A DNA stretch of 64,000 nucleotides from Scyliorhinus canicula (lineage: Eukaryota). The position numbers are program-made. The DNA lies in the NCBI RefSeq assembly GCF_902713615.1, contig NC_052161.1, positions 60,967,424-61,031,423 on the forward strand, read 5' to 3'. Below are positions 1-3,000 of this stretch, piece by piece (positions within the stretch are counted from its first letter, which is position 1; every line of letters starts with the position of its first letter).

Positions 1-3000
1 CAGTGACCTACCCTTCTCCCCGTATACTTCAGGTATCATTGCTGTGTACCGAGAGGCATCAGGAAATTGTTTACAGATGCTCTCCAGTTTGTCGAGGTAG
101 GACTGAGCCTCTGTCAGTTGTTCCATGTGATAATATACCCAGGCATAGTTTCCATAGGTGATGATGATTCTTTTATCAAATTCATCTTCATGATTCTCCC
201 TCAGAAACTTTTCAGCATCCTTTAAGTTTTGAATCGCCTCCTCACAGTTTCCTTGCAGACAGTTTACAAAAGCGAGTTGGTTGTAAAACCTGGGTTGATA
301 TTTCTCATTTGTCTGAATTGAATCTTCTAATCTTTGCTTCATGTCATCCAAGTCAATATTTTCTTTCTGTGGCCCCCATGTGAAATGACATTGAAGCTGT
401 TCAAGCTTCTCTTTCAACAAATCCTTCTCTTGGTCACTGCAAGAGAAAAACAAACCCATCAAACTCCATCTTGGACTAACTGAACCATTTTATAAGCCCC
501 TCCGTCCAGTTTTATTATCTGAGAGCTGTTCCTGACTCTGGGACTCAGTGAGCCTCAAACCTCTGGTCACACAATGATTATCAATGATGTGGAGATGCCG
601 GCGTTGGACTGGGGTGGGCACAGTAAGAAGTCTTACAACACCAGTTAAAGTCCGACAGTTTGTTTCGAATTACCAACTTTCGGAGTGCAGCTCCTTCCTC
701 AGGTGAATGATTCACCTGAGGTAGGAGCTGTGCTCCGAAAGCTAGTGATTCGAAACTAACCTGTTAGACTTTAACCTGGTGTTGTGAGACTTCTTACTGT
801 GCCCACCCCAGTCCAATGCTGGCATCCGGAGGAGGGATTGCTGGGGGAGAGGCGTAGCCTTCAGGCCAGGTTCGACCTATTGACTACCAGAAAGGCGGAA
901 GCTCAGTGGAGGAGAGCACAGGGGGCGGTGTATGAATATGGGGAGAAGGCGAGCAGGATGCTGGCACACCAGCTCCGAAAGCGAGATGCGGCCAGGGAGA
1001 TTGGGGGAGTGACGGATAGAGTTGGGAAGGTGGTGCGGAGGGGGATAGACGTTAATGGGGTCTTTAGGGACTTTTATGGGGAATTGTACCGGTCTGAATC
1101 CCCGGTGGGGGGGGGGGGGGGGGGGGGGGGGGAATGGGGCGCTTCTTGGACAAACTGCGATTTCCGAGGGTGGAGGAGGGGCAGGTGGAGGGACTGGGGG
1201 CGCCGATTGAGCTGGAGGAGCTGGGTAAAGGGATAGGGAGCATGCAGTGGGGGAAGGCGCCAGGGCCGGATGGGTTTCCGGCCGAATTTTATAAAAGGTA
1301 TGCGGACCTGTTGGGCCCCGTGTTGGTCCGGACCTTTAACGAGGCAAGGGAGGGGGGGGCTTTGCCCCCAACTATGTCACTGCCTCTGATTTCCTTGATC
1401 CTGAAGTGGGACAAGGACCCTCTGCAGTGTGGGTCATATAGGCCGATCTCGCTGCTAAATGTAGACGCCAAGCTGCTGGCAAAGATCTTAGCCACAAGAA
1501 TAGAGGATTGTGTGCCGGTGGTCATTCACGAGGACCAGACGGGGTTTGTGACGGGAAGCCAGTTGAATACTAATGTACGAAGGCTCCTCAACGTTATGAT
1601 GCCGGCTGTGGAAGGGGAGGCGGAGATAGTGGTGGCATTAGATGCGGAGAAGGCCTTTGATAGGGTTGAGTCGGGGTATCTGTGGGAGGTGTTGGAAAGG
1701 TTTGGGTTTGGGGAGGGGTTTGTCCGTTGGGCAAGGTTGCTCTATGCGGCCCCGATGGCGAGTGTAGCCACGAATAGGAGGAGGTCGGAGTACCTTCGGC
1801 TGTAACGGGGGATGAGACAGGGGTGTCCCCTGTCCCCCTTGCTCTTTGCGTTGGCAATTGAGCCCCTGGCCATGGCGTTGAGGGAGTCAGGGAACTGGAG
1901 GGGCCTGGTGCGGGGTGGGGAGGAGCATCGAGTGTCGCTTTATGCGGACGACCTGTTGCTGTATGTAGCGGACCCGGTGGGGGGGATGCCATAGGTGATG
2001 AGGATTCTCAGCGAATTTGGGGGCTTCTCTGGGTATAAGCTGAACCTGGGCAAGAGCGAGTTGTTCGTGGTGCACCGGGGGATCAGGAGGAGGGGATTGA
2101 TAGGCTCCCACTGAAGCAGGCAGGGAAGAGCTTCAGGTACCTAGGAGTCCAGGTGGCTGGGAGCTGGGGGGCCCTGCACAAGCTCAACCTCACAAGGGTG
2201 GTGGAGCAGATGGAGGAGTTCAAAAGATGGGATATGTTACCGTTGTCACTGGCGGGGACGGTGCTCCCGAGGTTTGTGTTCCTGTTCCAGTGCCTCCCCA
2301 TCCTTATCCCGAAGGCCTTTTTTAGGAGAGTTAACAGGAGTATTACGGGATTTGCGTGGGCGCATGGGACTCCGAGGGTGTGAAGGATGTTCTTGGAACG
2401 GGACAGCGATAGGGGGGCTGGCGCTGCCCAACCTCTGTGGGTACTATTGGGCTGCCAACGCAGCGATGGTGTTTAAGTGGGTAATGGACGGAGAAGGGGC
2501 AGCATGGAAGAGGATGGAGATGGCATCCTGTGTGGGCACGAGCCTGGAGGCGCTGTTAACGGCGCCGTTGCCGCTCCCTCCAATGAGGTATACCACGAGC
2601 CCGGTGGTGGCGGTTACCCTCAAAATTTGGTGGCAATGGAGACGGCATAGGGGAGAAGTGGGGGGCTCAATGGAGGCCCCGATACGGGGGAACCATCGGT
2701 TTGCTCCAGGGAGCATTGATGACGGATTTCTGAGCTGGCACAGGGTAGGGGTTAGCAGGTTGAGGGACCTGTTTGTGGAGGGGAGGTTTGCGGGCTTGGG
2801 GGAGTTAGAGGGGAAGTTTGGGTTCCCCCCGGGGAATATGTTTTGTTACATGCAGGTTTGGGCGTTTGCCAGGCGGCAGGTGGAGGGGTTCCCCTTGTTG
2901 CCTCCACGTGGGGTATGGGACAGGGTGCTCTCGGGGGTGTGGGTTGGAGGAGGGAGGATTTCGGACATATACCGGGTAATACAGGAGTTAGACGAGGCCT

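What the first reader, a model, noticed from the sequence alone, without database searches (positions are those of the whole stretch)
1..585. IFIT-A and IFIT-B exons are far more similar than their adjacent intron: gene conversion
Manual comparison of 1-436 with 25127-25562 gives 17 differences (about 96% identity; 12 replacement, 5 silent). The first ~145 bp of intron (437-585 vs 25563-25705) are only about 75-80% identical. Silent divergence well below intron divergence points to exon-limited conversion, as reported among mammalian IFIT1/IFIT1B. The high replacement share suggests relaxed or positive selection afterwards.
Basis: partly seen in the sequence, partly recalled or inferred. Interest (0 to 1): 0.65.

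Follow-up and report, generated by a model that had tools for sequence, protein, structure and literature searches.

The report
Patchy gene conversion among catshark IFIT genes
Two neighbouring antiviral IFIT genes of the small-spotted catshark are much more alike at the start of their main exon than in the intron beside it, most likely because neighbouring copies overwrite short patches of each other, as is already known for mammalian IFIT genes.

Summary
Window 1-436 and 25127-25562 (minus strand, 5' end of IFIT exon 2) differ at 17 of 436 bases: 12 replacement and 5 silent. The adjoining intron (437-581 vs 25563-25702) is 115/145 columns identical.

Silent divergence is dS 0.064 against intron K 0.204. 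That gap is only moderately significant (Fisher p=0.015; p=0.074 if a family-wide conserved 108-nt segment is left out).

The window is Scyliorhinus canicula, not human. It holds three IFIT genes (A cut by the window start, B complete, C frame-shifted) plus gene remnants.

Gene conversion is the best reading, but not an exon-wide or private A-B event. The protein record for A shows three strata against B:
- first 145 residues: 12 differences
- middle 273 residues: 47 differences
- last 65 residues: 2 differences

The A-to-S. torazame comparison is even across these regions (11, 17, 6). Gene C is about 33% diverged from A/B but only 5/108 different in the conserved segment, silent sites included.

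The replacement share (12:5) equals the family's long-term ratio (74:31), so no later relaxed or positive selection is needed.

This is a shark case of the 5' IFIT homogenisation described in mammals. Interest is modest.

The parts
1..436 (-). IFIT-A exon 2, 5' part (1 base completing a Ser codon plus 145 codons), cut by the window start. Its protein is P0005 (485 aa).
   Evidence: Translation; tblastn; P0005 sequence (it is listed as the window's own).
437..581 (-). 3' end of the IFIT-A intron, the only intron stretch still alignable with IFIT-B (79.3% identity).
594..826 (.). Palindromic inserted element (arms 87.7% complementary) in the A intron, just beyond the end of A/B homology. Reverse-transcriptase ORFs follow (for example 1098-1802).
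   Evidence: Pfam RVT_1 E=1e-17.
5935..5939 (-). Coding part of IFIT-A exon 1 (ATG plus 2 nt), with donor GT at 5934-5933. The A intron therefore runs 5934..437.
   Evidence: The layout matches the two-exon IFIT structure described in passages of PMC3688568.
6093..6104 (-). ISRE (AGTTTCAGTTTC) about 160 nt upstream of the A start codon.
24080..25562 (-). IFIT-B exon 2, complete (493 codons plus stop). It is 100% identical to S. canicula XP_038629046.1 (P0001).
   Evidence: TPR families. End-to-end match to IFIT5/IFIT1 structures.
25563..25702 (-). 3' end of the IFIT-B intron, homologous to A 437-581.
27293..27354 (-). Alternative first coding exon of IFIT-B isoform X2 (20 codons plus 2 nt, donor GT at 27292-27291).
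30111..30196 (-). Alternative first coding exon of IFIT-B isoform X1 (P0121).
1..108 (-). A's copy of the conserved 108-nt segment (codons 109-145). The B copy is 25127-25234.
   Evidence: Three-way counts: A-B 4/108, A-C 5/108, B-C 5/108.
60623..60730 (+). C's copy of the conserved segment. Identity to A/B is 95% here against about 67% in the 328 columns upstream.
59495..59499 (+). Coding part of IFIT-C exon 1 (ATGAG|gt), with a TATA-like box and an imperfect ISRE-like site upstream.
60292..61722 (+). IFIT-C exon 2, open in two frames with a shift between 60988 and 61000. No full-length protein model of it was found.
34492..34662 (-). Remnant of an IFIT C-terminus (57 aa, 64.9% identical to B) with an in-frame stop.
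49336..49467 (-). Orphan IFIT-type exon 1 (ATGAG|gt at 49340-49336) with an ISRE at 49457-49467. It is not used by either B protein model.

Best explanation
The window is a piece of the tandem IFIT (interferon-induced, TPR-repeat, RNA-binding antiviral) gene cluster of the small-spotted catshark. IFIT-A and IFIT-B are old paralogues. In the middle of exon 2, and by inference in the intron (K about 0.2), their split predates the separation of S. canicula from S. torazame.

The first 145-150 codons of exon 2 were later overwritten by non-allelic gene conversion among cluster members. This patch therefore has a younger common ancestor (dS about 0.06). Its 5' edge lies within about 15 nt of the splice acceptor, where paralogue homology decays. 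Its 3' edge lies at the end of a ~110-nt segment that is nearly identical in all three copies in the window. The last ~60 codons form a second young patch. The conserved segment probably supplies the run of near-identity that strand exchange needs.

Shown: the identity strata, the change point, the silent-site contrasts and the regional protein contrasts.
Inferred: conversion as the mechanism.
Not determined: donor and recipient, the number of events, and timing (around or somewhat before the species split).
For: 1) dS 0.064 vs intron K 0.204, Fisher p=0.0146. The change point is 14 nt from the acceptor, with 0/5000 permutations reaching it.

2) Silent sites in this part of the exon are free to change in the long run: B-C pS is 0.51 in codons 1-108. 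So the low A-B dS there is not explained by synonymous constraint.

3) Old sequence lies on both sides of the young block. A-B protein differences are 12/145, 47/273 and 2/65. N vs middle gives p=0.012; C vs middle gives p=0.0027. A vs S. torazame P0006 is even across regions (11/145, 17/273, 6/65), and the two distributions differ (chi-square p=0.010).

4) The middle partition places A with P0006/P0008/P0124 (SH-aLRT 97-99) and rejects an A+B clade (AU p=0.0019). The N partition is an unresolved bush. The C partition groups the S. canicula copies (81).

5) Quartet sites in the last 65 residues: 3 species-wise, 0 orthology-wise.

6) Gene C vs B: pS is 0.12 in codons 109-146 against 0.67 elsewhere (p=8.5e-8). 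Among codons coding the same residue, 3/34 differ in the segment against 83/194 outside (p=8e-5). All three copies are equidistant there (4, 5 and 5 of 108), while A-C is 107/328 upstream.

7) The same architecture appears in another shark. Mustelus P0009 vs P0014 differ at 3/145 vs 45/273 residues (p=1.6e-6), with the break after residue 149 (6/2000 permutations).

8) GC3 of B is 0.48 and 0.47 in the two young blocks against 0.33 in the middle (p=0.006 and p=0.03). This is consistent with GC-biased conversion but is not diagnostic.

9) Precedent: recurrent 5' conversion between mammalian IFIT1 and IFIT1B (passages of PMC4887208).
Against: Silent-site support rests on 5 synonymous differences. 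Without the conserved segment p=0.074, and the confidence intervals overlap.

Only 145 bp of intron are comparable.

In the first 145 residues the best protein tree still keeps A with P0008 and P0006 (support 42). An A+B clade is neither favoured nor rejected (AU p=0.40). Three of four informative quartet sites (46, 128, 145) favour orthology.

The reverse AU tests are not significant: N-part vs the middle-part Mustelus grouping p=0.083; C-part vs the A clade p=0.14. The clades tested were named after the trees had been seen.

B has a long private branch in the middle of the exon (0.11) and no clean S. torazame orthologue. Part of the A-B contrast could therefore be B-specific acceleration.

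The strata beyond codon 145 are known from proteins only, because A's DNA there lies outside the window.

The single-break scan of A-B proteins is marginal (107/2000).
Confidence: 0.6

Rival explanations
1. There was no conversion. A and B simply diverged, and the exon/intron contrast is sampling noise plus a faster-evolving intron end (indel-prone pyrimidine tract). The larger A-B distance in the middle of the exon reflects accelerated change on the B lineage.
For: Only 5 silent differences. p=0.074 once the conserved segment is left out, and the intervals overlap. B's private branch in the middle partition is long (0.11). The N-part tree does not place A with B.
Against: Expected silent differences at the intron rate are about 14.5 against 5 observed (binomial 0.002). 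Differences are spread evenly over both halves of the intron, 14/72 and 16/73, not concentrated in the pyrimidine tract. The last 60 residues of A and B are identical, and species-wise sites cluster there. The C patch (p=8.5e-8) shows that exchange or something like it occurs in this very cluster.
Confidence: 0.2
2. Unequal crossing-over. A or B is a chimera formed when misaligned tandem copies recombined near the start of exon 2. Intron and exon then come from different parent genes, without any patch-wise conversion.
For: The genes lie in a tandem array. There is a single sharp change point close to the acceptor. Non-coding flanks of the paralogues are otherwise unalignable: only the ISRE and 7 more bases are shared by the A and orphan promoters.
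Against: One crossover gives one switch. The A-B comparison shows at least three: intron to N block, N block to middle, middle to C block. The ~110-nt C patch is flanked on both sides by diverged sequence.
Confidence: 0.1
3. Selection on the nucleotide sequence itself (splicing enhancers, mRNA structure or another exonic element) keeps silent sites of the 5' exon alike, without any exchange between copies.
For: The 108-nt segment is alike in all three copies, and its peptide is invariant or nearly so in both IFIT subfamilies of every shark protein examined.
Against: Outside that segment, silent sites of codons 1-108 are half saturated between B and C (pS 0.51). Within the segment A-B divergence (4/108) is no lower than in the rest of the A-B exon (13/328). 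The segment folds no better than shuffles as RNA, with z = -0.21, -0.14 and +0.59. Rfam finds nothing in the window.
Confidence: 0.07

Closest known systems
Recurrent gene conversion between mammalian IFIT1 and IFIT1B (Daugherty et al. 2016, eLife, PMC4887208; passages read)
   Same: Tandem IFIT paralogues have a homogenised 5' coding portion and a diverging remainder. There is a recurrent breakpoint inside the single large exon. The effect blurs orthology in trees built from the 5' part.
   Different: The lineage is elasmobranch rather than mammal. The homogenised block is shorter, about the first third (145-150 codons) rather than two thirds. Several paralogues are involved rather than one pair. 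There is an additional young block at the 3' end. The upstream edge could be mapped to the splice acceptor because intron sequence is at hand. Here the evidence is one genome window plus predicted proteins, without GARD or GENECONV on nucleotides.
Lineage-specific expansion of vertebrate IFIT genes with two-exon structure and ISRE promoters (Liu et al. 2013, PLoS One, PMC3688568; passages read)
   Same: Exon 1 carries only ATG plus two bases (A, C and the orphan exon). An ISRE lies within about 130-165 nt upstream of the start codon (A and the orphan). The genes form a tandem cluster.
   Different: A term search of that paper found 0 occurrences of 'gene conversion' or 'concerted'. Its only cartilaginous species is the elephant shark.
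Short conversion patches anchored on conserved motifs in other tandem immune and sensory gene families (general knowledge, recalled, no call)
   Same: A short stretch of high identity sits inside otherwise diverged paralogues, silent sites included.
   Different: Not tested here against any specific described case.

Membership tests
IFIT protein family | Tetratricopeptide repeats along the whole protein | tested here: met
   For B exon 2, 29 Pfam families match at E<=0.01 (best 25 shown). All those above their curated cut-off are TPR-type, for example TPR_2 at 9.1e-28.
IFIT protein family | End-to-end sequence similarity to IFIT proteins of known structure | tested here: met
   B residues 3-483 align to IFIT5 chain 3zgq_A residues 5-482 (E=5.3e-108). 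IFIT1 5w5h_A gives E=2e-100. The best database hit is 100% identical to S. canicula 'IFIT5-like isoform X2'.
IFIT protein family | Two-exon gene in which exon 1 holds ATG plus 2 nt | tested here: met
   ATGAG|gt is at 5939-5935 for A and at 59495-59499 for C. B's two protein models instead use alternative first exons at 27354 and 30196.
IFIT protein family | ISRE in the promoter; induction by interferon | tested here: inconclusive
   A perfect ISRE core is present for A (6093-6104) and the orphan exon 1 (49457-49467). C has only an imperfect site. None was found for B's alternative first exons. Induction is not testable with these tools.
Interlocus gene conversion (as in IFIT1/IFIT1B) | Mosaic identity with a significant change point between paralogues | tested here: met
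   For A/B the change point is 14 nt from the acceptor, with 0/5000 permutations. For B/C the patch has 5/108 vs 106/328 differences.
Interlocus gene conversion (as in IFIT1/IFIT1B) | Silent-site divergence inside the tract lower than in neutral flanks | tested here: met
   A/B: 5/81.3 vs 25/140, p=0.0146. This weakens to p=0.074 without the conserved segment. B/C: pS 0.12 vs 0.67, p=8.5e-8.
Interlocus gene conversion (as in IFIT1/IFIT1B) | Trees of different gene parts disagree (paralogues group by species in the tract) | tested here: inconclusive
   Protein level only. The middle part rejects A+B (p=0.0019) and A+B+P0008 (p=0.007). The C part's best tree has that last clade (81) but does not reject the alternative (p=0.14). 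The N part is unresolved.
Interlocus gene conversion (as in IFIT1/IFIT1B) | Formal recombination tests on nucleotide alignments of all paralogues and orthologues (GENECONV, GARD) | not testable with these tools
   The 5' border fits. At protein level, however, A-B identity falls to 68-80% in windows covering residues 141-220, and there are 47/273 differences in the middle part. The 3' exon border of A is outside the window.

The most novel reading that the evidence does not exclude
The ~110-nt segment (A 1-108, B 25127-25234, C 60623-60730) may be more than a passively converted patch. It could be a sequence kept near-identical at silent sites in every IFIT copy of the cluster, across subfamilies that split before the shark orders diverged. 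It would then act as the homology anchor where exchanges between copies start or end. That would fix a common breakpoint just after residue ~149, which is seen here for A/B and in Mustelus P0009/P0014. It would also let the N-terminal module be shuffled as a cassette among antiviral paralogues.
Probability: 0.15. Interest if true: 0.55.

Novelty: new member of a known kind. Interest (0 to 1): 0.3.

Why it matters
IFIT proteins bind viral RNA 5' ends, and in mammals conversion between copies has confused orthology and function assignments. The same process in a shark would mean that 5' homogenisation of IFIT paralogues is an old and recurrent feature of the family. Trees and dN/dS scans of shark IFITs would then have to be made region by region. 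The numerous 'IFIT5-like' and 'IFIT1-like' names in shark annotations would say little about orthology. In practice, the middle of exon 2 is the part to use for orthology.

Tried and rejected
1) RNA-structure explanation for the conserved segment. The three copies fold no better than shuffled sequence (z -0.21, -0.14, +0.59), and Rfam at gathering thresholds finds nothing in the 64 kb.

2) Positive or relaxed selection after conversion. Omega is 0.54, and the N:S ratio is the same as the long-term B-C ratio.

3) Further A/B intron or promoter homology as extra neutral sequence. None was found beyond 581/25702. A's exon 1 and promoter core (5877-6224) have no match elsewhere in the window. A and the orphan promoter share only 18 of 19 bases around the ISRE.

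4) A canonical exon 1 for B. Among the 8 ATGAGGTA sites in the window, only those at 5939(-) and 49340(-) have an ISRE-like site within 260 nt upstream. The ISRE-pattern hit at 52807 lies in unrelated sequence.

5) A long identical run inside the A-B exon (298-218, 81 nt) as a sub-tract. By my own rough estimate, not a call, this is not unusual at 4% divergence.

It was rerun with faster code.

7) Literature. No paper on IFIT conversion in sharks turned up with the terms IFIT+shark+gene conversion (6 papers, none on the subject by their listings), IFIT+catshark (3), IFIT+cartilaginous fish+expansion (18), IFIT+concerted evolution (21) and Scyliorhinus canicula+interferon-stimulated genes (1). 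Those papers were judged from the search listings only.
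Full report
WHAT THE WINDOW IS

The window holds no N and is not human. The complete open exon at 25561-24083 (minus strand) is 100% identical to the Scyliorhinus canicula protein XP_038629046.1, 'IFIT5-like isoform X2', on a contig of 144,966,053 bp. The search found 1457 proteins at E<=0.001 among the 7999 scored candidates. The top of the list is all shark and ray IFIT-like proteins.

The protein carries TPR repeats. It aligns end to end with IFIT5 (E=5.3e-108) and IFIT1 (E=2e-100) structures.

GENE CONTENT

tblastn with B finds four IFIT pieces:
- A at 435-1 (minus), cut by the window start.
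- B at 25561-24083 (minus).
- C at 60293-61710 (plus), in two frames.
- A 57-residue C-terminal remnant at 34662-34492 with an in-frame stop.

A's protein is P0005 (485 aa, marked as the window's own), whose start reads MS|DQEK....

Exon 1 of A is ATGAG|gt at 5939-5935, with a perfect ISRE at 6104-6093. C has ATGAG|gt at 59495-59499. This is the classical IFIT layout (passages of PMC3688568).

B's two protein models use other first exons, at 27354 and 30196. A further ISRE plus ATGAG|gt at 49467-49336 (minus) is used by neither B model.

The space between the genes is rich in retroelement ORFs. Of the 10 ORFs tested, RVT_1 was found twice, an endonuclease once and an integrase once. One had only a sub-threshold hit, and 5 had no family at E<=0.001.

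THE OBSERVATION

It is correct in both parts.
- Exon: 17 differences in 436 bases, 12 replacement and 5 silent.
- Intron: 437-581 vs 25563-25702 gives 115 matches, 25 mismatches and 5 gap columns in 145.

Nei-Gojobori estimates are dS 0.064, dN 0.035 and omega 0.54. The Jukes-Cantor intron distance is 0.204.

A maximum chi-square scan places the change 14 nt upstream of the acceptor, with 0 of 5000 permutations reaching it. Intron differences are spread evenly, 14/72 in the distal half and 16/73 in the proximal half. Homology ends at 581/25702, next to a palindromic insertion at 594-826 in A.

HOW STRONG IS THE SILENT-SITE CONTRAST

It is moderate.
- Synonymous vs intron: p=0.0146.
- Four-fold sites (1/37): p=0.018.
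- Third positions (8/145): p=0.0014.
- Leaving out the last 37 codons, which belong to a family-wide conserved segment: 4/56.8 vs 25/140, p=0.074. The 95% intervals overlap between 0.119 and 0.138.

Constraint on silent sites is not a good explanation for codons 1-108, because B and C differ at half of the silent sites there (pS 0.51).

BEYOND THE WINDOW: PROTEIN STRATA

I aligned 27 of the 120 listed proteins (Scyliorhinus and Mustelus), and later 28 with P0124.

A vs B differ at 12/145 residues in the block seen in the window, 47/273 in the middle and 2/65 at the end. A vs the S. torazame protein P0006 differ at 11/145, 17/273 and 6/65.

The A-B contrasts are significant (N vs middle p=0.012; C vs middle p=0.0027). 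The A-P0006 contrast is not (p=0.68). The two distributions differ (p=0.010).

Trees used 18, then 19, of these rows. Nine were left out: P0015, P0016, P0020, P0033 and P0061 as N-terminally short or partial, and P0042, P0043, P0044 and P0045 as more distant.
- Middle: (P0006,(P0124,(A,P0008))) with support 97-99, and B apart.
- First block: an unresolved bush.
- End block: the S. canicula copies group together, with support 81.

AU tests:
- The middle rejects A+B (p=0.0019) and A+B+P0008 (p=0.007).
- The first block neither favours nor rejects A+B (p=0.40), and its best tree keeps A with P0008/P0006 at support 42.
- The end block does not reject the A clade (p=0.14).
The clades were named after seeing the trees, which weakens these p-values.

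Quartet sites (A, B, P0006, P0002), counted as orthology-wise against species-wise:
- First block: 3 vs 1.
- Middle: 12 vs 2 (one further site supports the third grouping).
- End: 0 vs 3.

In the first block A is about equally far from B (12), P0124 (10), P0008 (11) and P0006 (11). In the middle the same distances are 47, 13, 22 and 17.

So the young first block is a family-wide compression of distances, not a private A-B event. It is not younger than the species split by any clear margin.

A SECOND, CLEARER PATCH

Gene C belongs to another IFIT subfamily. Its best hit is P0127 at 81% over the C-terminal half, with relatives in six other shark genera among the proteins listed.

Against A and B it differs at 107/328 and 106/328 positions in the 5' part. 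In the next 108 positions it differs at only 5/108 and 5/108, where A-B is 4/108.

Silent sites (B vs C) show pS 0.12 in codons 109-146 against 0.67 elsewhere (p=8.5e-8). Among codons that code the same residue, 3/34 differ in the segment against 83/194 outside (p=8e-5).

The peptide of this segment is the same or nearly so in all 34 shark proteins I fetched from both subfamilies, so protein constraint is real. It does not explain the silent sites. Conversion, made easy by the identity itself, is the simplest reading. Selection on the nucleotide sequence is the alternative. RNA folding gives no support for a structure.

The A-B young block ends, and the Mustelus P0009/P0014 break falls (after residue 149; 3/145 vs 45/273, p=1.6e-6; 6/2000 permutations), right at the end of this segment.

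OTHER POINTS

GC3 of B is higher in the two young blocks (0.48, 0.47) than in the middle (0.33; p=0.006 and p=0.03). Gene C shows a weaker gradient of the same kind. This fits GC-biased conversion but is not diagnostic.

The replacement share is ordinary. 12:5 does not differ from neutrality (p=0.34) and equals the B-C ratio of 74:31.

COMPARISON WITH WHAT IS KNOWN

Daugherty et al. 2016 report recurrent conversion of the 5' portions of mammalian IFIT1 and IFIT1B, with a common break about two thirds into the gene. I read 12 passages of that paper.

A term search of Liu et al. 2013 found no mention of conversion; I read 12 passages. Five searches found no paper on IFIT conversion in sharks (listings only).

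VERDICT

Conversion is the best explanation (confidence 0.6), but it is patchy and family-wide, with the tract ending inside the exon. There is no sign of a later shift in selection.

This is a new member of a known kind, of modest interest.

What stays unchecked: all nucleotide-level tests beyond the window, and orthologue dS, because no shark DNA outside the window could be reached.

Noticed in passing
window 60988-61000 (gene C, 60292-61722, +): IFIT-C is open in two frames with a one-frame shift in a GAA-rich run. No full-length protein model of it appears among proteins of 420-2000 aa (best hit P0127, 81%). It is either a young pseudogene or an assembly indel.
   Followed up: partly
window 49336-49467 (-) and 34492-34662 (-): An intact-looking ISRE, TATA-like box and ATGAG|gt exon 1 has no exon 2 of its own nearby. 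About 15 kb downstream on the same strand lies a 57-residue IFIT C-terminal remnant with an in-frame stop. Together they may be the wreck of a fourth IFIT gene.
   Followed up: partly
window 27293-27354 (-) and 30111-30196 (-): Both public protein models of IFIT-B start in non-canonical first exons that add 20-28 residues. No canonical ATGAG exon 1 with an ISRE was found between B's exon 2 and 49340.
   Followed up: partly
window 5535-5876 and 6225-6565: The promoter and exon 1 of IFIT-A sit between two inverted copies (95% identical) of a repeat. The same repeat occurs many times in the window (for example 13032-13315, 37795-37994, 7607-7936).
   Followed up: partly
window about 6590-8500 and 26592-26692: blastn hits offset by about 35 nt indicate a tandem array in the A-upstream region, related to a short stretch upstream of B's exon 2.
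   Followed up: no
window about 1106-1132: A run of about 25 G lies inside a reverse-transcriptase-bearing element in the A intron.
   Followed up: no
proteins P0009 and P0014 (Mustelus asterias), not in the window: This pair is a striking protein mosaic, with 3/145 differences in the first block against 45/273 in the middle. In the first-block tree all four Mustelus proteins group together (support 94), although the middle part rejects that grouping (AU p=2.9e-46).
   Followed up: partly
window 24083-25561 (-): GC3 of IFIT-B is 0.48 in the first 145 codons, 0.33 in the middle 273 codons and 0.47 in the last 74 codons.
   Followed up: partly
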